From positions 1 through 31,841 of the forward strand of contig DATCOR010000308.1 of the NCBI GenBank assembly GCA_036564585.1: a stretch of 31,841 nt of DNA, written 5' to 3'. The notes under the pieces were generated by a model. The model searched no databases. It was not told where the DNA came from and was given only the letters and a program-made list of their open reading frames with translations. The stretch comes from Candidatus Limnocylindria bacterium. Its GTDB lineage: Bacteria > Chloroflexota > Limnocylindria > P2-11E. This document shows positions 5,046 through 17,572 of this stretch, piece after piece; the first letter of the stretch is position 1, and every line of letters starts with the position of its first letter. Position numbers and translations under genes: made by a program.

Positions 5046-6896
5046 ATGAGCGACGTGGATGTCGAGCGCAGCGAGAGGCTCCGAAGCGTCGATCTGACCT
5101 CCGGTCTCGATCGGGTGGCGCTGGCCCGCCTGGCCGCGTACATGGATCCGGTCTCCGTGCCGGCGGGCGAGGCGATCATCACCGAAGGCGAGACCGGCGA
5201 CGCGCTCTACATCATCGTGCGCGGGACCTTCGCGGTGCTCGTCGATGGTGCACGCGTGAACACCGTCGGCCCGGGTCACTACGTCGGAGAGCTGGCGCTG
5301 CTGATCGACGAGCCGCGATCGGCGACGATCCGCGCGGACACCGACGGCGAGGTGCTTCGCCTCGAGCGTCAGCAGTTCATGGATCTGTTGGGACGCGACG
5401 CACCGGCCGCGCGAGCCGTCGCGACGACGCTCGCCCGCCGGCTGCGCCGGCGCGACGGCGCGCTGCCCGATGAGGCAGAGGCCACTCTCGCGGCGATCCC
5501 GGTGCGCGCTCCCCGGTCGGCGCGCGCGCCGATCACGAAGATCGTCGGTCTGGTCATCGCGATCGCGCTCGGCGCGGCAGCGTTCTCGCCGCTCGTCGAT
5601 CTCGCGCAGTGGCGCTTCGCGTTGCTGCTGTTCGCGGCGGTCACGCTCTGGGTATCCGAGCCCGTGCCCAACGTGGTCGTCTCGCTCGGGCTGGTCGGCG
5701 CCCTGGCCCTGACCGGCATGGCCCCGTCCTACGCGGTGCTTCAGGGCTTCGCGACCCTCAACTGGGTATTCGTCCTGTCCGTGCTCGGCGTGGCGGCGGC
5801 GGTGGCCCGCTCCGGCCTGCTCCTGCGTCTCGGCCTCCTGCTCATCGAGCGGGTGCCCGCGCGCCCGGCCTGGCAGTCGGCGACGTTCCTCCTCACGGGC
5901 ATCGTGCTGACGCCACTCCTTCCGCTCGCGATGGCCCGCGCGGCGATCACCGCGCCACTTGCGGAGGGCGTCTCCGACACGATGAAGCTCCCAGCGCGCG
6001 GCCCAGCGAGCGCCGCGCTCGGGCTCTCGGCGTGGATCGGCTCGGGACCGTTGATGTTCCTGTTCATGAACGGCTCGACGGCCTGCCTCGTGGCCTGGAG
6101 CCTCATGCCGATCAAGGACGAAGTCGAATTCACCTGGACCCAGTGGTTCCTGTCGGCGGCTCCGCTCGGGGCCATCATCGCCGTCGGTTCGTTCGTGGCG
6201 ATGCGCGTCATGTTCCGCACGGGCCCTCGGCCGGCGCCGGCACGCGCGCCACTGCGGCTACAGCGGGCCATTCTCGGCCCGCCGTCGACCCGCGAGCTTT
6301 TGATCCTCGCGATCGTCGCCTCCATGCTCATCGGGTGGATTGTCGGCCCGCAGTTTCTGTGGCCGCCGGGTCTGGTCGCGCTCTTCGCGTTCATCGCGGT
6401 GATGATCGTCGCCGGCGTGTCGGATCTGAAGAACCTCGATTGGGAGTACCTCATCTTCTTCGGCGTGCTGCTGTCGATCGCGGAAGTCGCAAAAGGGCTG
6501 TCGCTGGACAAGATCGTGGGTAACAGCGCGGCCACATGGCTCACCCAGCTCGGACTCGGCGGCGCAGGGCTCGTCATCCTGGCCGGCGTGGTCACCATCC
6601 TCGTGAAGTCGCTGTTGGCCGCGGATCAGGCCGTCTTGCTGTTGTCGTTCGCGTTCATCCCCGTCGCGACGGCGGTGAACATCAGCCCCTGGCTGGTGGC
6701 GGTGGCCATCCTTGCGCTCGGACTCAGCTGGCACGTGCCGGCGCAGTCGCCGGAGTACCTAGTCGCGTACGGCGCGACCCACGGGCGCCTCTACTCGCAC
6801 GCGCAAGGGCGCCGGATGGCCCTTGTCTATGAGGCGATCGCGCTCGCGGGTCTCGCGATCTGCCTTCCGTACTGGCACCTGCTCGGCTACCTCTAG
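5046..6896 (+). CDS. cNMP-binding domain fused to an SLC13/DASS-like (ion transporter superfamily) permease
   Basis: N-terminal cNMP cassette (IITEGETGDALYIIVRG...VGELALLIDEPRSATIRA) followed by many TM segments with LWVSEPVP and FMNGS motifs. Confidence 0.8.
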   Translation: MSDVDVERSERLRSVDLTSGLDRVALARLAAYMDPVSVPAGEAIITEGETGDALYIIVRGTFAVLVDGARVNTVGPGHYVGELALLIDEPRSATIRADTDGEVLRLERQQFMDLLGRDAPAARAVATTLARRLRRRDGALPDEAEATLAAIPVRAPRSARAPITKIVGLVIAIALGAAAFSPLVDLAQWRFALLLFAAVTLWVSEPVPNVVVSLGLVGALALTGMAPSYAVLQGFATLNWVFVLSVLGVAAAVARSGLLLRLGLLLIERVPARPAWQSATFLLTGIVLTPLLPLAMARAAITAPLAEGVSDTMKLPARGPASAALGLSAWIGSGPLMFLFMNGSTACLVAWSLMPIKDEVEFTWTQWFLSAAPLGAIIAVGSFVAMRVMFRTGPRPAPARAPLRLQRAILGPPSTRELLILAIVASMLIGWIVGPQFLWPPGLVALFAFIAVMIVAGVSDLKNLDWEYLIFFGVLLSIAEVAKGLSLDKIVGNSAATWLTQLGLGGAGLVILAGVVTILVKSLLAADQAVLLLSFAFIPVATAVNISPWLVAVAILALGLSWHVPAQSPEYLVAYGATHGRLYSHAQGRRMALVYEAIALAGLAICLPYWHLLGYL

Positions 6897-6899
6897 CGC

Positions 6900-7574
6900 G
6901 TGCCGGTCACCCTCGCCGCGCGGCTCAGACAGATCGCTCGCCGCCTCCGCCGCGCGTACGGCGCGCCACCTGCGCCGCGCCGGCTGCCGCCGCTCGACGA
7001 GCTCGTGCTCACGATCCTGTCGCAGAACACGAACGACACGAACCGCGATCGCGCGTACGCGGACCTGCGGGCCACGCTCCCGGCGTGGGAGGACGTCGCC
7101 GACGCGCCGCTCCCGGTGATCGAGCGCGCTATCCGCAGTGGCGGGCTCGCGCCGACGAAGGCGCCGCGGATCCGCGCGGTCCTCCGCGCGCTGCGCGATC
7201 GCGGCATCGCGCTCGACGAGCGGGCGTTGCGCCGCATCCGGCACGACCGGCTGTTCGACCTCCTGGTGGCGCTTCCTGGTGTCGGCCCGAAGACCGCAGC
7301 GTGCGTCCTGCTGTTCTCGCTCGATCGCCCGTACTTCCCGGTCGACACGCACGTCCATCGTGTCGCGATCCGCCTCGGCCTCGTCGCGCCACGGTCGACG
7401 GCGGTGCAGACGCAGGCGCAGCTCCAGGCAGCGCTCGCACCCTCGGAGATGTACGAGGCCCACATGAATCTCATCCGGCACGGCCGCCACGTGTGCGTCG
7501 CGCTGCGACCGATCTGCTCGCAGTGCGTGCTGAACGACATCTGCCCGAGGGTCGGGGTCGTGCGCGCGCGCTGA
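6900..7574 (+). CDS. Second endonuclease III-family HhH-GPD DNA glycosylase
   Basis: TILSQNTND, GGLAPTKA, LPGVGPKTA, PVDTHV and canonical C-x6-C-x2-C-x5-C. Confidence 0.9.
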   Translation: MPVTLAARLRQIARRLRRAYGAPPAPRRLPPLDELVLTILSQNTNDTNRDRAYADLRATLPAWEDVADAPLPVIERAIRSGGLAPTKAPRIRAVLRALRDRGIALDERALRRIRHDRLFDLLVALPGVGPKTAACVLLFSLDRPYFPVDTHVHRVAIRLGLVAPRSTAVQTQAQLQAALAPSEMYEAHMNLIRHGRHVCVALRPICSQCVLNDICPRVGVVRAR

Positions 7575-7714
7575 TCCGGCAAGAGGGGACCCGCTCGCTC
7601 CCCGTTACCGCATCGTCGGCGCATCGAGGCGTGGCCGCGGGTCCGTGGCGGCTCGGGGGCCGCGAATGTGCTCGTCATCGGTACGCGCACGTTCGCGCCA
7701 TGGAGAGATATCAG

Positions 7715-11909: not shown

Positions 11910-12097
11910 CGTGGGACGGAACGCTGTCTTCGCTCATGGGACACGCACCCTCACCGTGCTGATCCGCCGATGATCCAACCGCTGCCTGCTCTGCGGTCGA
12001 CCGGGCGACTGCTTTCACGGCGACTCACCGACGGCCCACGCGCGCCTGCGGCGCGTTACCTGCTGACCTGTTCACCGACATCTCGAGGAGGTTCAGC

Positions 12098-12520
12098 GTG
12101 AAGGTCGAAGAGCTCATGACCCGCGATCCGGCGACGCTCCGTCCAGAGTCGACGTGCACGGAAGCGGCAGCGCTCATGAAGAGCAAGGACTGCGGCTCGC
12201 TTCCGGTGGTGAAGGACGGGAAGCTGGTCGGCATCGTGACGGACCGCGACATCGTGCTCCGCGTCGTGGCCGGCAAGAAGGACCCGACGCGGATTGCGGT
12301 GGCCGAGATCATGACCGCAGCGCCGGTCACGGTCGCGCCGGCGACGCGAGCCGAAGACGCGTCCAAGGTCATGTCCGAAAAGCAGGTGCGGCGGCTGCCG
12401 GTCGTCGACGACGGGCGTCTGGTGGGCATCCTCACGATCGGACAGCTCGCCCGTCGCGAATCGCTCAACGCCGTGGGCGAGACGCTGAAGGAGGTCAGTC
12501 AGCCGACCGCGAAGCGCTAG
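12098..12520 (+). CDS. Tandem CBS-domain protein
   Basis: GSLPVVKDGKLVGIVTDRDIV and RRLPVVDDGRLVGILT; SD GAGGAGG. Confidence 0.9.
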   Translation: MKVEELMTRDPATLRPESTCTEAAALMKSKDCGSLPVVKDGKLVGIVTDRDIVLRVVAGKKDPTRIAVAEIMTAAPVTVAPATRAEDASKVMSEKQVRRLPVVDDGRLVGILTIGQLARRESLNAVGETLKEVSQPTAKR

Positions 12521-13890: not shown

Positions 13891-14841
13891 TCACGGATCC
13901 ACCTGGCTCGACCAGGTCGCGACGAGCTCGCCCGAGCAGAACACCATGCCCGGGGCAGTGGACTTGAAGTTGAGGTAGTAGGTCTTCGGGCCGGCCGGGA
14001 CGTCCACGCGCACCGTGGCGAATGAGAGGTCCCACGTTCCGCTCGCATTCACGTTGACGCTGGTCTGCGTTCCGTTGTTCGCGAAGATCGACGGAGTACC
14101 GACGAGCGCGTAGCGACGGGTCCCGTCGGTCTGGACGACGCCCGCGCTGTCCTCGATCGTCACGTAGACCCGGTTGGCGCCGCTCACGCCGCAGTGTCCG
14201 GTCGCCTGCAGGAGCATCTGTCCGCCGGCGTGGGTCGTGGCGAGCGACGCGAGGTTGTGGGGCAACGTGTTGCCGCCGTTGGACACCCAGTTCTCATCGC
14301 AGAACCCGAACGAGCACAACCGCCCGCTGTCGGCTTCGGCCTGCGGGTTGCCGGCTCCGGCCGGCCCCGTCGCGCCGGTCGCGCCCGCGGCACCGGTGGC
14401 GCCTGTTGCGCCAGTGTCGCCCTTCGCGCCAGTTGCGCCGGTCGCGCCGGCCGCCCCGGTCGCACCCTGCGGGCCTTGCGGCCCTGTCGCACCGGTCGCG
14501 CCCGCGGCGCCGGTCGCCCCTGCTGATCCGGTCGCGCCGGTCGCTCCCCTTGCACCGGTCGCCCCTGAGGCGCCGGTGGCACCGGCCGCGCCAGTCGGCC
14601 CGGTCGGGCCGGCCGAACCGCTCTGATCCCAAGTGAGGCTCAGCTCGTTGGACCGGCAGTCACTCGCGTCGTTCACTAGCCGCAGGCTACCGTCGGGCTT
14701 GTAGCACGCTTGGATACTGCCGCTCGTGCTGTTGAACGGCCCACCCTTCGCGGCGACGACGGTGCCGCTGCCGATGAGGCAGGCGATCACCGCGATCACG
14801 ATCATGCGCAACGCACCGAGACGATGGATCTCTGCGAACAC
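13891..14841 (-). CDS. Secreted collagen-like protein
   Basis: SD GAGGAGGTG before GTG 14841; hydrophobic signal; small Cys-containing domain (IQACYK..GSLRLV...C...W); 30 Gly-X-Y triplets; beta-rich C-terminal domain. Confidence 0.85.
14350..14619 (-). repeat. Collagen 9-bp repeat array (30 Gly-X-Y triplets, mostly GAT)
   Basis: 270 nt uninterrupted, from GSA GPT GPT to GPA GAG. Confidence 0.9.
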
Positions 14842-15154
14842 GGGACACCTCCTCACACCAACGCAGCGAGTAAAGGTGAGCGTGAGCCGGCCAACAAGGG
14901 ACGGAAGGGTCCTCCTACGAACGGCCCCGCGCTAGTACGAACGGCGCACATGACGATCCCCCAACGATCCGCCTCCCGAACTCCCAACGATGTGTCCGCC
15001 GACCCTTGTGTTCGCCCGGATCGGGCGGACAGTGAGGTTCCAGTGGGTCCGATGGATCCGATGCACGCCGAGCTCAGCGCCGGCGAGTGCTCGTGATCCC
15101 TGGTAGCTCAGTCGCACACCACGCGGACACCGATATGAGAAATGGGAGCAAACC

Positions 15155-15619
15155 ATGTCAACCGATCAGAACAAGACCATCGCTCGCCGCATCGTCGACG
15201 AGGCCTGGAACAAGCACGACCCGAGCATCCTCGACACGCTCTTCTCGACCGACGCGATCCTGCACGACCCGCGGAACAAGACGATCGTCAAGGGTCCGCA
15301 GGGCGCCAAGAGCACCCTCGCGACGTACCTCAAGGCATTCCCGGACATGAAGATCTCGATCGAGCGGGAGATCGCCGAGGGCGACTTCGTGGTCCAGCAC
15401 CTCATTGCGTCCGGTAAGAACACGGGCGAGTTCAACGGCATGCCCGCGACCGGCAAGAACACCAGCGTCACCGGCGTCATGACGAGCAAGATCAAGGACG
15501 GCAAGGTCATCGAGGCCTGGTCGCTCTTCGACTCGCTCAGCCTCCTCCAGCAGCTGGGTGTCGTCCCGGCATCGCAAGCCACCCCGACGCGCGAGCCCGA
15601 GCTCGTCGGCGCTCGCTAG
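15155..15619 (+). CDS. SnoaL-like ester cyclase / NTF2-fold protein
   Basis: MSTDQNK, AFPDMKISIEREIAEGDFVV, GEFNGMPATGK, DGKVIEAWSLFD. Confidence 0.88.
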   Translation: MSTDQNKTIARRIVDEAWNKHDPSILDTLFSTDAILHDPRNKTIVKGPQGAKSTLATYLKAFPDMKISIEREIAEGDFVVQHLIASGKNTGEFNGMPATGKNTSVTGVMTSKIKDGKVIEAWSLFDSLSLLQQLGVVPASQATPTREPELVGAR

Positions 15620-15641
15620 GTCACACGCGACTCAGGTGAGC

Positions 15642-15673
15642 GGCGCCCGGCGGAGTCACCTCCGCCGGGCGTC
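15642..15673 (+). terminator. Strong hairpin after the ester cyclase gene
   Basis: 14-bp stem GGCGCCCGGCGGAG-TCAC-CTCCGCCGGGCGTC with only a short T tail. Confidence 0.6.
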
Positions 15674-15727
15674 TTCGCGCGCACGTGTAGGCTCGGCTTC
15701 GTTACCGCGAGATCGGGGAGGAATGGC

Positions 15728-15976
15728 ATGCCGAAGTTCATGGACGTTCACAGTGGGTTCGTTGGCGTGAGCGCGGAGCAGCTGAAGCAGGCGCACGAAG
15801 CGGACCTGGCGATCGAGAAGGACGAGAAGGTGCACTTCGAGCGCGCGTGGCTCGATCCGAAGAGCGGCAAGGTCTTCTGCCTCTCATCGGGCCCGAACAA
15901 AGAAGCGATCATGAAGATCCACGAGCGCGCGGGTCATCCGACGGCGGAGGTCTACGAGCTGCCGATCGAGGTCTGA
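15728..15976 (+). CDS. DUF4242 / SCO4226-type nickel-binding protein
   Basis: FMDVH, AHEADL, VHFERAW, KVFCLS.GP, IHERAGH; SD GGGAGGA. Confidence 0.88.
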   Translation: MPKFMDVHSGFVGVSAEQLKQAHEADLAIEKDEKVHFERAWLDPKSGKVFCLSSGPNKEAIMKIHERAGHPTAEVYELPIEV

Positions 15977-15979
15977 GAC

Positions 15980-17140
15980 ACGCGCCGCATCGGGATCCTC
16001 ACCGGCGGCGGTGACGTTCCGGGTCTGAACTCGGTCATCAAGAGCGTGGTGTATCGCTCGACCGAGCTCGGCTTCGCGGTGCTCGGGATCCGTCGCGGCT
16101 GGCTGGGGCTCACGAACCTTGCGCCCGGTTCCGACCTCGATCGCGAGCACGTCCTGCCGCTCGACCTCACGAACACACGGACCATTGACCGCACCGGCGG
16201 GACGATGCTGCACACGTCGCGCACGAACCCGGCCCGGATGAAACGCGATGGTCTGCCGCCGCACCTGGCCGCCGGCGCGGCACGCTACCTGACGGCCGAT
16301 GGCGTCTACGACCTCACGCCCGTGGTGTTGGAGAACATCGCGCGGCTCGGCCTCGATCACCTGGTCGTGATCGGCGGAGACGACACGCTCGGCTACGCGC
16401 ACGGCATCGCCGCGCGCGGCATCTCGCTCGTGGCGATCCCGAAGACGATGGACAACGACGTGCGCGACACCGAGTACTGCATCGGCTTCTCGACCGCGGT
16501 CACCCGGGCAAAGGAGCTCATCAACCGACAGCGGACGACGCTCGGGTCGCACGAGCGCATCGGTGTATTCCGCATCTTCGGTCGCGATTCCGGCTTCAGC
16601 GCCCTCCACATCGCGTATGTCACCTCGGCGCGCTGCCTGATCCCCGAAGCGCCGTTCGATCTCGAGCGGGTCGTCTCGCTCCTCGTCGCGGACAAACGCG
16701 CCAATCCGAGCCGCTACGCGTTCGTCATCGTCGCGGAGGGTGCCACGTGGATCGGCGCGAAGGTCGGCGAGCTGGGCGAGCCGGATGGGTTCGGTCATCG
16801 GCGAAAGGTCGACATCGGCGACGCGCTGGCCGAGGAGATCCGCCGCCGCAGCGGGGAGGATGCGATCGTCAGTCAGCTGACGTACGACCTGCGGAGCGGC
16901 GACCCGGACTCCTTCGACCAGATGGTCGCGACCACGTTCGCGAACATCGCCGTCGACCTCATCGCCGACGGTGCCTCCGGCCGCATGATCGCGATCCGCG
17001 GCGGCCGCTACACCCATGTCGCGGTGCCGGACCCCAGCCTCGGTCCGCGAACCGTGGACGTCGCTCGCTACTACAACACCGAGCGATTCCGCCCGCGCTA
17101 CGACGGTCGCGACGGCTTCTCGGTGATGCTCTCCGACTGA
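15980..17140 (+). CDS. pfkA: 6-phosphofructokinase, PPi-type signature; apparent ACG start
   Basis: The ORF track starts at 16046, but the conserved RRIGILTGGGDVPGLN lies upstream in frame, starting at ACG 15980 with SD GAGGT 7 nt before. GGDDT and PKTMDND motifs are present. Confidence 0.85.
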   Translation, partial: TRRIGILTGGGDVPGLNSVIKSVVYRSTELGFAVLGIRRGWLGLTNLAPGSDLDREHVLPLDLTNTRTIDRTGGTMLHTSRTNPARMKRDGLPPHLAAGAARYLTADGVYDLTPVVLENIARLGLDHLVVIGGDDTLGYAHGIAARGISLVAIPKTMDNDVRDTEYCIGFSTAVTRAKELINRQRTTLGSHERIGVFRIFGRDSGFSALHIAYVTSARCLIPEAPFDLERVVSLLVADKRANPSRYAFVIVAEGATWIGAKVGELGEPDGFGHRRKVDIGDALAEEIRRRSGEDAIVSQLTYDLRSGDPDSFDQMVATTFANIAVDLIADGASGRMIAIRGGRYTHVAVPDPSLGPRTVDVARYYNTERFRPRYDGRDGFSVMLSD

Positions 17141-17144
17141 CTCC

Positions 17145-17525
17145 TCAGCGCGGCGTGGGCGCGCGTCGTGCCGCGGCGCCGAGCTTGCACCACTCCTTGA
17201 CCATCGAGCGCAGCTCCGGCGCTCGCGCGCTCGCCTGCCGCACGTCGGCGATCCGCATCCGCTTCGCGACCGTCCCTTCGAGGTGCGGATAGCGTCCGCG
17301 CAGCCGTCCGCCACGGTGGAGTCGGAGATTCACGCCGGGCTCGCTGTACCGGACGAACGCGCCGAAGTCGCCGCTCTTCGTCGACGAAAAGGTGATGCCG
17401 TACTGCACGCGCTCGCGCATGCTCGGATCGGCGCCGAGGATGATCTCCCGCACCCGACGGAGCGCGGCCTCGGAGGGCGGCTTCGTCCGCGCGAACCACG
17501 CCTCGACCGCAGCTGACCTCGGCAC
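17145..17525 (-). CDS. DUF1801 (YdhG-like) protein
   Basis: LRRVREIILGADP...ERVQYG..F, VNLRLHRG.RL...PHLEG; GATAAT 6 nt before the GTG. Confidence 0.75.
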   Translation of the reverse strand: MPRSAAVEAWFARTKPPSEAALRRVREIILGADPSMRERVQYGITFSSTKSGDFGAFVRYSEPGVNLRLHRGGRLRGRYPHLEGTVAKRMRIADVRQASARAPELRSMVKEWCKLGAAARRAPTPR

Positions 17526-17572
17526 TCACCGATTATCGGACGACCCCAGGAAGATCGCGACGGTAGGCTCGC

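What the first reader, a model, noticed from the sequence alone, without database searches (positions are those of the whole stretch)
15968..16045. PFK has no canonical start: ACG initiation or in-frame UGA read-through from DUF4242
Seen: ...GAG GTC TGA GAC ACG CGC CGC ATC GGG ATC CTC ACC GGC GGC GGT GAC. The essential N-terminal strand with the GGGD motif sits in frame with the upstream gene after its TGA, with no ATG/GTG/TTG in between. ACG (15980) has GAGGT 7 nt upstream and would give the textbook start MRRIGILTGGGD. Options: (a) a real near-cognate ACG start that throttles a glycolytic enzyme; (b) UGA read-through giving a Ni-binding-domain/PFK fusion; (c) an ATG-to-ACG mutation or consensus error. 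The ORF-track start (16046) would delete catalytic residues.
Basis: partly seen in the sequence, partly recalled or inferred. Interest (0 to 1): 0.7.

Follow-up and report, generated by a model that had tools for sequence, protein, structure and literature searches.

The report
Start-less phosphofructokinase kept by selection
In a group of uncultured soil Chloroflexota, a 48-50 base deletion removed the ribosome-binding site and ATG of the phosphofructokinase gene, yet this start-less version is common in nature and still evolves like a working gene, so it is probably translated in an unusual way, most likely by ribosomes restarting at ACG three bases after the stop of the gene in front.

Summary
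PFK (15980-17140) follows the TGA of an SCO4226-like gene in frame, and no ATG/GTG/TTG precedes the GGGD loop. The cause is not an ATG-to-ACG change or a consensus error. The three closest species keep the same gene pair but have 51-53 nt between the stop and this ACG; that spacer holds an SD, an ATG and two codons. The window has 3 nt (GAC), so 48-50 nt were deleted and ACG is the ancestral Thr4 codon.

The deletion is real. Contigs from four runs in three studies bridge it without gaps, and one JGI contig has the same junction with a TAG stop. About 60 public contigs carry N-truncated PFK calls, the mark of this allele.

The start-less gene is not decaying. dN/dS is 0.05-0.11. The window's own branch has 19 synonymous changes and 1 non-synonymous. 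Changes inside start-less clades avoid conserved sites.

The allele is scattered over the PFK tree, by recombination or recurrence.

The mechanism is inferred. I favour coupled reinitiation at ACG (GAGGT 7 nt upstream, +3 nt after the stop). Rivals are an AUC/AUU start, a read-through fusion, or a recurrent loss-of-function allele.

This scan has noted ACG starts before, but only in archaea.

The parts
15644..15671 (+). Perfect 12-bp GC-rich hairpin (CGCCCGGCGGAG-TCAC-CTCCGCCGGGCG) between the SnoaL-like gene and the SCO4226-like gene. It probably marks the 5' boundary of the two-gene unit.
   Evidence: Read; conserved in L002-L004. The terminator scan did not call it because there is no T-run.
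15728..15976 (+). SCO4226-family (DUF4242) nickel-binding protein gene, 82 aa, preceded by a strong SD (GGGGAGGA) 6 nt before its ATG. It is the upstream partner that would deliver terminating ribosomes.
   Evidence: Pfam PF14026 80.4 bits; NCBIfam NF033706 equivalog 141.6 bits, cut-off 125. Intact in all five loci, pN/pS 0.015-0.10.
15968..15972 (+). SD-like GAGGT inside the last codons (I-E-V) of the upstream gene, 7 nt before ACG.
   Evidence: The same ATCGAGGTC is present in L002-L004 and L032, so it is inherited coding sequence, not a newly evolved SD.
15974..15976 (+). Stop codon TGA of the upstream gene, in frame with PFK. The same position is TAG in L032.
15977..15979 (+). GAC, all that remains between the stop and ACG. 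This is the deletion scar: L002, L003 and L004 have 51, 53 and 53 nt here, holding SD, ATG and two codons.
15980..15982 (+). ACG, the ancestral Thr4 codon and the favoured candidate start (would give M-R-R-I-G-I-L-T-G-G-G-D).
   Evidence: ACG is also kept in L032.
15989..15991 (+). ATC (Ile), the alternative near-cognate start. The 383-aa protein on record for this window (source NCBI) begins here (MGILTGGGD). L032 has ATT at this position.
   Evidence: (P0001, 383 aa).
15980..17140 (+). Phosphofructokinase ORF, intact, 386 codons counted from ACG, with the Asp/Lys motifs GGDDT and PKTMDND.
   Evidence: dN/dS 0.05-0.11.
16046..16048 (+). GTG, the first canonical start in frame (the ORF-list start). 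It is a synonymous variant private to the window and would remove the GGGD loop.
   Evidence: L002, L003, L004 and L032 have GTC here, and the X6 contig reads C at 16048.

Best explanation
Shown: in an ancestor whose SCO4226-like gene and PFK gene were separated by a 51-53 nt spacer (SD, ATG, two codons), 48-50 nt were deleted, leaving stop-GAC-ACG. This start-less allele is real, occurs in many soil metagenomes beside the intact ATG allele, and its PFK reading frame stays whole and under purifying selection. Inferred: PFK is therefore still made. It must be transcribed together with the upstream gene. Ribosomes that finish that well-translated 82-codon ORF terminate at TGA/TAG. Held by the GAGGT that pairs with the 16S rRNA tail, they reinitiate with initiator tRNA on the near-cognate ACG 3 nt downstream. 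The protein would start M-R-R-I-G-I-L-T-G-G-G-D. If figures measured in E. coli apply, output would be about two to three orders of magnitude lower than from the ATG allele and would depend on translation of the upstream gene. My odds are about 0.45 for ACG specifically and about 0.6 for coupled near-cognate initiation (ACG or AUC/AUU) in general.
For: Deletion: the alignment with L002/L003/L004 (PFK 97/95/93% aa identity, same gene pair) shows the missing spacer with SD and ATG. More distant relatives start M-P-G-(A/T)-R-R-I-G at ATG/GTG.
Real and widespread: Logan contigs bridge 15974-15985 with 0 gaps in X1 and X2 (study P1), X5 (P2) and X6 (P3, a 1825-nt contig, 54 differences in 1187 nt). 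JGI contig L032 has ...GAG GTC TAG GAC ACG CGT CGC ATT GGG. The 90% protein clusters hold N-truncated calls of 363/364/353 aa on about 60 contigs, against about 35 contigs with 389-aa ATG forms. One truncated call (P0145) matches L032's contig by length (7787 nt) and by protein sequence.
Still selected: NG86 dN/dS is 0.05 for win-L002, 0.10 for win-L032 and 0.11 for L032-L004. Polarised terminal branches give 19 syn: 1 nonsyn for the window (p=1.4e-10 against neutrality) and 31:11 for L032 (p=1.8e-10), no worse than the ATG sisters at 25:4 and 20.5:9.5. Inside three clades made only of truncated calls, 5 of 25 aa changes hit sites that are at least 90% conserved, although such sites are 53.5% of all sites (p=6e-4); this matches the ATG clades (13/84). 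The first 22 codons differ between the window and L032 by 4 synonymous and 0 non-synonymous changes.
Site choice: GAGGT lies 7 nt before ACG. The stop-to-start spacing of +3 nt is the same as in the classic coupled pairs galT/galK and rplK/rplA (PMC12548453). The upstream gene has a strong SD and is conserved. An ACG start leaves 3 residues before IG, within the 2-7 seen in 107 homologues, whereas an ATC start leaves 0. ACG does initiate with Met in E. coli (bioRxiv 10.1101/063800).
Against: No RNA, ribosome-footprint or peptide evidence was obtained. In E. coli, ACG belongs to the 0.1-1% class, below AUC/AUU/AUA/CUG at 1-2%, and it is not among the start codons accepted in Ribo-RET mapping. 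ACG is conserved in only two full DNA sequences of the allele, and it is also the inherited Thr codon, so its conservation says little. The SD-like GAGGT is inherited coding sequence. The allele is polyphyletic on the PFK tree (AU test rejects window+L032, delta lnL 86.6; at least 8 state changes on the protein tree). One truncated call (P0019) has a body identical to 389-aa forms. Part of the low dN/dS may therefore predate the deletion in each background, if the allele spreads by recombination or recurs.
Confidence: 0.45

Rival explanations
1. Initiation at the Ile codon AUC 15989 (AUU in L032), 12 nt after the stop, giving M-G-I-L-T-G-G-G-D. This is the start implied by the 383-aa protein on record for this window (source NCBI).
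For: AUC and AUU are accepted rare bacterial starts and are stronger than ACG in E. coli (1-2% against 0.1-1%; listed as start codons). The codon is a near-cognate in both DNA copies (ATC, ATT). P0001 on record starts here, and P0146 (L032-like, NCBI) starts at the next ATC.
Against: The only SD-like motif would lie 16 nt upstream. The product would have no residue before the IG strand, shorter than any of 107 homologues (minimum M-R-I-G). An annotation pipeline's choice is limited to table-11 starts and is not evidence. ATC/ATT are ordinary synonymous Ile codons.
Confidence: 0.17
2. The start-less allele is a loss-of-function allele and PFK is not made. It looks intact because the deletion recurs, or moves by recombination, onto backgrounds whose PFK was functional until recently. 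PFK is dispensable in this genus.
For: Only 11 of 23 other genomes of the genus have any PFK-family hit, and four of those without one are 91-93% complete. The allele is scattered over the tree. L032 is a mosaic that switches affinity near the junction. P0019 (truncated call) is identical in body to the 389-aa P0003/P0004. G000 has a GlpX FBPase, so gluconeogenesis does not need a reversible PFK.
Against: No frameshift or stop occurs in any of 25 distinct truncated-call sequences or in the bridging contigs. Three clades made only of start-less calls have internal diversity that still avoids conserved sites (p=6e-4). The window's branch shows 19 syn: 1 nonsyn, although a strain 4.5% diverged (X6) already shares the deletion. 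The allele is at least as frequent as the ATG allele.
Confidence: 0.2
3. Stop-codon read-through produces a low level of an SCO4226-like/PFK fusion protein (82 aa, one residue at the stop, Asp, then PFK).
For: The two ORFs are in frame in the window and L032, and, judging by the absence of gaps, in the X1, X2, X5 and X6 contigs. A stop has persisted rather than a frameshifted arrangement.
Against: The stop is TGA in the window and TAG in L032, so no specific recoding signal is kept. The L002-type ancestor was already in frame and lost 48 nt, so the frame is inherited, not selected. No protein of about 470 aa appears among the 120 best PFK hits, although lengths of 212-676 aa were searched. No stable structure is predicted at the junction (z=0.42). 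If a fusion were useful, a sense mutation at the stop would be expected to spread.
Confidence: 0.1
4. Sequencing, assembly or consensus error, or a private ATG-to-ACG mutation, in this genome bin.
For: The genome is a fragmented bin (315 contigs, 62% complete).
Against: The same junction is present in independent assemblies of four runs from three studies and in a JGI contig of another sample. Relatives show that ACG is Thr4, not a mutated ATG.
Confidence: 0.01
5. Translation starts at the first canonical codon (GTG 16046 or 16049), giving an N-truncated protein without the GGGD loop.
For: This is what mechanical ORF finders and most gene callers report.
Against: GTG 16046 is private to the window. 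The callers' starts differ among lineages (363, 364, 353 and 311 aa). The 22 codons upstream show only synonymous differences. The product would lack the first strand and the phosphate-binding GGGD loop.
Confidence: 0.02

Closest known systems
Translational coupling by termination-reinitiation at +3 nt spacing (E. coli galT-galK, rplK-rplA; review PMC12548453; Huber et al. PMC6728339, PMC10666635)
   Same: Co-directional genes, with the stop of the upstream gene 3 nt before the proposed start, an SD inside the end of the upstream ORF, and a very short distance as coupling requires.
   Different: The known pairs restart at AUG/GUG; here no canonical codon exists. Coupling was not tested. The arrangement arose by a recent deletion and is polymorphic. 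The partners are not subunits of one complex.
Natural near-cognate bacterial starts (E. coli infC and pcnB AUU, from my own knowledge) and measured initiation from all 64 codons (Hecht et al., bioRxiv 10.1101/063800)
   Same: SD-led initiation by initiator tRNA on a codon one base away from AUG, giving low expression sensitive to IF3. ACG was shown to yield Met-initiated protein in E. coli.
   Different: ACG is not among annotated or accepted bacterial start codons. Here the codon was not selected as a start; it was exposed by a deletion.
ACG starts in eukaryotic viruses (AAV VP2, Sendai C') and ACG-to-AUG editing in plastids (own knowledge); ACG starts noted earlier in this scan in Bathyarchaeia, Thermoplasmata and Asgard archaea
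   Same: ACG sits at the head of a conserved protein with no canonical start available.
   Different: Those cases are in eukaryotes, organelles or archaea, and the ACG replaces ATG at the homologous position in many species. Here it is a bacterium, ACG is the former fourth codon, and relatives carry ATG upstream.
Programmed stop read-through extensions (phage Qbeta A1 protein, own knowledge)
   Same: In-frame UGA between two coding segments.
   Different: The stop identity is not conserved (TGA/TAG), no stimulatory structure is predicted, and no fused homologues were found.
Gene inactivation by loss of the start codon (early pseudogene)
   Same: SD and ATG were removed by a small deletion in a gene that half of the genus lacks.
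   Different: The ORF is intact in every copy seen, omega is 0.02-0.13, the allele is frequent, and it has diversified under constraint.

Membership tests
Phosphofructokinase, PFK-A family (PF00365) | Full-length match to the family profile above the curated cut-off | tested here: met
   213.6 bits against a cut-off of 30.9, profile positions 1-277 of 277. The NCBIfam subfamily models score below their cut-offs (PFK_mixed 261.7 against 430.6), so no equivalog name is assigned.
Phosphofructokinase, PFK-A family (PF00365) | N-terminal strand plus GGGD phosphate-binding loop | tested here: met
   RRIGILTGGGDVPGLN at 15983-16030 aligns to KRIGVLTSGGDSPGMN of chain 1mto_A. It lies upstream of every canonical start.
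PPi-dependent subtype of PFK-A | Asp and Lys at the positions of E. coli Gly104 and Gly124 (this rule is from my own knowledge of the literature) | tested here: met
   GGDDT and PKTMDND, against GGDGS and PGTIDND in 1mto_A. Only the motif was tested; donor specificity itself cannot be tested here.
SCO4226-family nickel-binding protein (PF14026 / NF033706) | Equivalog-level profile match over the whole length | tested here: met
   141.6 bits against a cut-off of 125, positions 1-82 of 82. Nickel binding was not tested.
Gene with a near-cognate (non-AUG/GUG/UUG) start codon | No canonical start in frame between the upstream stop and the conserved N-terminus | tested here: met
   the same holds in L032.
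Gene with a near-cognate (non-AUG/GUG/UUG) start codon | Near-cognate codon at SD-compatible spacing | tested here: met
   GAGGT 15968-15972 lies 7 nt before ACG 15980. For ATC 15989 the spacing is 16 nt.
Gene with a near-cognate (non-AUG/GUG/UUG) start codon | The codon is conserved as such across lineages that lack a canonical start | tested here: inconclusive
   ACG is present in both full DNA copies (window, L032), and no difference at 15944-16011 appears among the listed variants of four runs. However, 98 variant rows were not shown.
Gene with a near-cognate (non-AUG/GUG/UUG) start codon | Protein N-terminus or initiating-ribosome footprint at the codon | not testable with these tools
Translationally coupled pair (termination-reinitiation) | Co-directional genes with overlap or a very short stop-start distance | tested here: met
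   +3 nt (TGA GAC ACG). Coupling falls off by about 20 nt (PMC10666635).
Translationally coupled pair (termination-reinitiation) | Downstream translation depends on translation of the upstream ORF | not testable with these tools
   This needs reporter constructs with premature stops in the upstream ORF.
Programmed stop-codon read-through fusion | Conserved stop identity or context, or a stimulatory RNA structure | tested here: not met
   TGA in the window and TAG in L032. The fold of 15930-16050 is no better than shuffles (z=0.42).
Programmed stop-codon read-through fusion | Relatives in which the two parts are fused by a sense codon | tested here: not met
   No protein of about 470 aa among the 120 best hits, with lengths of 212-676 aa searched. 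Only the best 120 of 7837 hits were inspected.
Pseudogene | Disrupted frame or relaxed selection | tested here: not met
   No stops or frameshifts. Omega is 0.05-0.11, the terminal branch has 19 syn: 1 nonsyn, and changes avoid conserved sites. Caveat: the timing of the deletion in each background is uncertain.

The most novel reading that the evidence does not exclude
A natural bacterial ACG start. In soil Limnocylindria, a deletion fused the PFK coding sequence to the stop of an SCO4226-like gene. The enzyme would then be made only by terminating ribosomes that restart at ACG. This low-output, strictly coupled allele would be kept by selection beside the ordinary ATG allele as a population-level dosage polymorphism for the committed step of glycolysis.
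Probability: 0.35. Interest if true: 0.75.

Novelty: new variant of a known kind. Interest (0 to 1): 0.6.

Why it matters
Gene finders and annotation pipelines disagree on this gene (363, 364, 353, 311, 381 and 383 aa calls for essentially one protein), and none can propose ACG. Metabolic reconstructions of these abundant soil bacteria will therefore record a truncated or doubtful PFK.

Biologically, this is a natural experiment. Two alleles of one gene, with and without SD and ATG, coexist in wild populations, and the start-less one still behaves as a constrained gene.

If it is translated by reinitiation at ACG (or AUC), it would be a rare natural bacterial case where a central metabolic enzyme depends on a near-cognate start and on translation of its neighbour. 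It would also give a simple, clonable test case for two open questions: what start-codon rules apply to post-termination ribosomes, and how far start-codon choice sets enzyme dosage in nature. If it is instead a recurrent loss-of-function allele, it documents how a gene is lost stepwise in a genus where half the genomes already lack it.

Tried and rejected
The junction DNA of the roughly 60 truncated-call contigs could not be read, and 'truncated call' remains a proxy. It was checked against DNA only for the window and L032.
2. Junction-pattern scans found nothing. The first pattern required TGA and returned 0 hits in metagenome contigs and genome contigs, which is why it missed L032 with its TAG. 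The second pattern, allowing TRR, returned 0 hits in genome contigs. The tools state that records of the window's genome, or of one very near it, may be left out, so these zeros say little.
3. A simple slippage origin was rejected. An imperfect direct repeat (GGCACGCC-CATCG after the stop, GG(A/C)AC(G/A)CGCCGCATCG at the PFK start) flanks the lost segment in L002/L003. The product it predicts would keep AGCGG, which the window lacks. The way the deletion arose is unresolved.
4. A single clean origin was rejected. The AU test rejects window+L032 as a clade on PFK. Independent recurrence is also hard to accept, because both copies share the odd stop-GAC-ACG junction. The mosaic pattern of L032 favours spread by recombination, but this is not proven.
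5. The promoter and terminator scan of 15100-17400 found nothing. The RNA fold of the junction was no better than shuffles.
Nothing is known about expression.
7. A literature search for a published bacterial or phage ACG start confirmed by peptide (a lead from an earlier scan note) did not find the paper. No such precedent is cited.
8. UGA as a sense codon (another genetic code) or selenocysteine was rejected, because the homologous stop is TAG in L032.
Full report
1. THE OBSERVATION

The window reads ...CCG ATC GAG GTC TGA GAC ACG CGC CGC ATC GGG ATC CTC ACC GGC GGC GGT GAC....
- The upstream ORF (15728-15976, 82 aa) is an SCO4226-family/DUF4242 protein: Pfam PF14026 at 80.4 bits, and the NCBIfam equivalog NF033706 at 141.6 bits against a cut-off of 125.
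- The downstream ORF is a PFK-A family phosphofructokinase. The Pfam profile is matched from position 1 at the third residue after ACG 15980.
- In that frame nothing but TGA-GAC precedes ACG. The first ATG/GTG/TTG is GTG 16046, beyond the GGGD loop.

The case is also exceptional. I fetched 29 loci from related genomes and 78 complete loci from metagenomes. All have ATG/GTG/TTG 2-7 codons before the IG(I/V)LTGGGD strand, except one, L032. One of those loci, L024, belongs to the unpublished genome G007 and matters to no claim.

2. WHAT HAPPENED: A DELETION, NOT A POINT MUTATION

The three closest species of the same genus are G002/L002, G006/L003 and G017/L004, with PFK 97, 95 and 93% identical in protein. 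They keep the same neighbourhood: a SnoaL-like gene, a GC hairpin, the SCO4226-like gene, then PFK.
- In these species the stop of the SCO4226-like gene is followed by 51, 53 and 53 nt before the ACG/ACA codon. That spacer holds a GGGAG/GGAGG Shine-Dalgarno sequence, an ATG and two codons (Ser/Pro, Gly).
- In the window only GAC remains there.
- The ancestral protein began M-(S/P)-G-T-R-R-I-G. More distant relatives begin M-P-G-(A/T)-R-R-I-G.
ACG is therefore the old Thr4 codon, exposed by a 48-50 nt deletion that took away the SD and the ATG. The idea of an ATG-to-ACG change is refuted.

An imperfect direct repeat flanks the lost segment, but simple slippage on it would not give the exact junction. 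How the deletion arose is open.

3. IS IT REAL?

Yes.
- Contigs assembled independently from public runs cross the junction with no gap: X1 (386 nt, 2 differences) and X2 (269 nt, 2 differences) from one soil study; X5 (185 nt, 5 differences) from a second study; X6 (a 1825-nt contig, 54 differences over 1187 nt, 95.5% identity) from a third.
- The JGI contig Ga0310810_10021520 (L032; PFK 92% aa, 88% nt identical) has the same junction with a different stop: GAG GTC TAG GAC ACG CGT CGC ATT GGG.
- The 90% protein clusters around the window's PFK contain many N-truncated gene calls (363, 364 and 353 aa) on about 60 contigs from JGI, ENA and NCBI. The 389-aa ATG forms sit on about 35 contigs.
- One truncated call, P0145, matches L032's contig by length (7787 nt) and by protein sequence, so the truncated call is the gene finders' response to the missing start.
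- Names attached to near-identical proteins place the organisms in Candidatus Limnocylindria (Chloroflexota).

4. IS THE START-LESS GENE DECAYING?

The evidence says no.
- The ORF is whole in the window, in L032, in the bridging contigs and in 25 distinct truncated-call proteins. All of these run to the same C-terminus.
- Nei-Gojobori dN/dS is 0.05 (window-L002), 0.10 (window-L032) and 0.11 (L032-L004). ATG-bearing pairs give 0.09-0.13.
- Changes polarised by outgroups onto terminal branches: window 19 synonymous and 1 non-synonymous; L032 31 and 11. The ATG sisters L002 and L004 show 25:4 and 20.5:9.5. Against the neutral 304:851 site ratio, the window and L032 branches give p of about 1e-10.
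- The X6 strain is as far from the window (4.5%) as L002 is (5.0% over the same stretch) and already carries the deletion.
- In a tree of 61 close proteins there are three clades made only of truncated calls. The 25 amino-acid changes inside them hit sites at least 90% conserved in 82 distant homologues only 5 times, although such sites are 53.5% of the protein (p=6e-4). ATG-only clades behave the same (13 of 84; Fisher p=0.56).
- The 22 codons between ACG and the first GTG differ between the window and L032 by four synonymous changes and no replacement. GTG 16046 itself is private to the window. So the N-terminal strand and the GGGD loop are still being read as protein.

5. A COMPLICATION

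The allele is not monophyletic.
- On the PFK tree the window pairs with L002 and L032 pairs with L004. Forcing window+L032 together costs 86.6 log-likelihood units and is rejected by the AU test.
- On the protein tree the truncated state needs at least 8 changes, at least 4 of them forced by well-supported branches. One truncated call (P0019) has a body identical to 389-aa forms.
- Yet both DNA copies share the idiosyncratic stop-GAC-ACG junction, which no ATG allele would give by a clean excision.
- L032 is a mosaic. Upstream of the junction it sides with the window/L002 group; within PFK it sides with L004; the switch falls near the junction.
The simplest reading is one old deletion moved between backgrounds by homologous recombination. 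Recurrence is not excluded. This weakens, but does not remove, the selection argument: some of the low dN/dS may predate the arrival of the deletion in a given background. The within-clade test is less exposed to this.

6. HOW PFK IS PROBABLY MADE (INFERRED)

With 3 nt between the genes, PFK can only be transcribed with the SCO4226-like gene. That gene is conserved (pN/pS 0.015-0.10) and has a strong SD. The candidate mechanisms are these.

a) Reinitiation at ACG.
- For: the terminating ribosome sits 3 nt from ACG, the spacing of the classic coupled pairs galT/galK and rplK/rplA (PMC12548453). Coupling needs such short distances (PMC10666635). GAGGT lies 7 nt upstream. The product M-R-R-I-G... 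has an N-terminal length within the family's range. ACG does yield Met-initiated protein in E. coli.
- Against: in E. coli it does so at only 0.1-1% of AUG (bioRxiv 10.1101/063800).

b) AUC 15989 (AUU in L032).
- For: it is a stronger near-cognate (1-2%), and the 383-aa protein on record for this window (source NCBI) starts there.
- Against: it has no SD at useful spacing, and the N-terminus would be shorter than in any of 107 homologues.

c) Read-through fusion.
- For: the frame is kept everywhere.
- Against: an L002-type ancestor was already in frame; the stop is TGA in one copy and TAG in the other; no protein of about 470 aa exists among the 120 best hits; no structure is predicted (z=0.42).

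d) No translation, that is, a loss-of-function allele.
- For: PFK is patchy in the genus. Only 11 of 23 other genomes have a hit, and four without one are 91-93% complete. G000 has a GlpX FBPase.

My odds are: ACG 0.45, AUC/AUU 0.17, read-through 0.10, loss of function 0.20, other 0.08.

Whichever near-cognate route is used, the expected output is far below that of the ATG allele.

7. OTHER FEATURES OF THE ENZYME

It carries GGDDT and PKTMDND where the ATP-dependent Bacillus enzyme has GGDGS and PGTIDND. By the published Asp104/Lys124 rule (my own knowledge) this is the PPi-type signature. The phosphoryl donor was not tested. It is the only PFK-family gene found in the 62%-complete bin.

8. 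COMPARISON WITH WHAT IS KNOWN, AND NOVELTY

The pieces are known kinds: near-cognate starts, termination-reinitiation coupling, and start loss by deletion. Four things are unusual:
- the combination of these pieces;
- the absence of any canonical start for a central metabolic enzyme;
- the persistence and frequency of the allele beside the ATG allele;
- the signs of continued constraint.
ACG is not an accepted bacterial start codon. Earlier notes of this scan report conserved ACG starts only in archaea (not checked here). I found no paper describing this allele, though my searches targeted ACG starts, not this gene. I class it as a new variant of a known kind and give it an interest of 0.6. 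It would rank higher if ACG reinitiation were shown, and lower if the allele proves to be a recurrent knockout.

9. LIMITS
- There is no expression evidence of any kind.
- Only two full DNA copies of the allele were available.
- Read laying returned contigs, not reads, and hid 98 variant rows.
- E. coli efficiencies may not hold for Chloroflexota.
- The genome is an incomplete metagenome bin.

Noticed in passing
window 13891-14856 (-): A 321-aa ORF with a long collagen-like run of Gly-X-Y triplets ([28 protein letters not shown]...) behind a hydrophobic N-terminal segment. The repeat makes several spurious ORFs on both strands. It may be a collagen-like surface protein.
   Followed up: no
window 15644-15671 (+): A perfect 12-bp GC hairpin with a 4-nt loop sits between the SnoaL-like gene and the SCO4226-like gene and is conserved in L002-L004. 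It has no T-run, so the terminator scan did not call it. It may be a terminator or a processing site that sets off the two-gene unit.
   Followed up: partly
window 17144-17535: About 392 nt, holding a minus-strand 126-aa ORF (17145-17525) with no Pfam match, are absent from L002 but present in L003 and L004. This is a presence/absence polymorphism right after the PFK stop.
   Followed up: no
genus of G000: PFK is patchy. Only 11 of 23 other genomes of the genus have any PFK-family hit, including four genomes 91-93% complete with none. Two genomes carry only a distant paralogue (37-41% identity).
   Followed up: partly
L032 (Ga0310810_10021520), whole locus: The contig is a mosaic. The SnoaL-like and SCO4226-like genes are closest to the window/L002 group, while the PFK body is closest to L004. 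This indicates homologous recombination between lineages 8-11% apart.
   Followed up: partly
proteins P0122 and P0146: Near-identical PFKs from GenBank bins are labelled Candidatus Saccharimonadales, while the others are labelled Candidatus Limnocylindria/Chloroflexota. These are probably mis-binned or mis-named contigs.
   Followed up: no
L005-L008 against the window: In the more distant species of the genus the DNA upstream of PFK matches other parts of this window (for example 5745-6897, 6909-7580, 12087-12504). The SCO4226-like/PFK adjacency is therefore recent and limited to the window/L002/L003/L004/L032 clade.
   Followed up: no
G000 contig C224:15093-16007: A GlpX-type (class II) fructose-1,6-bisphosphatase is present (460 bits). 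No class I FBPase was found in the 62%-complete bin.
   Followed up: partly
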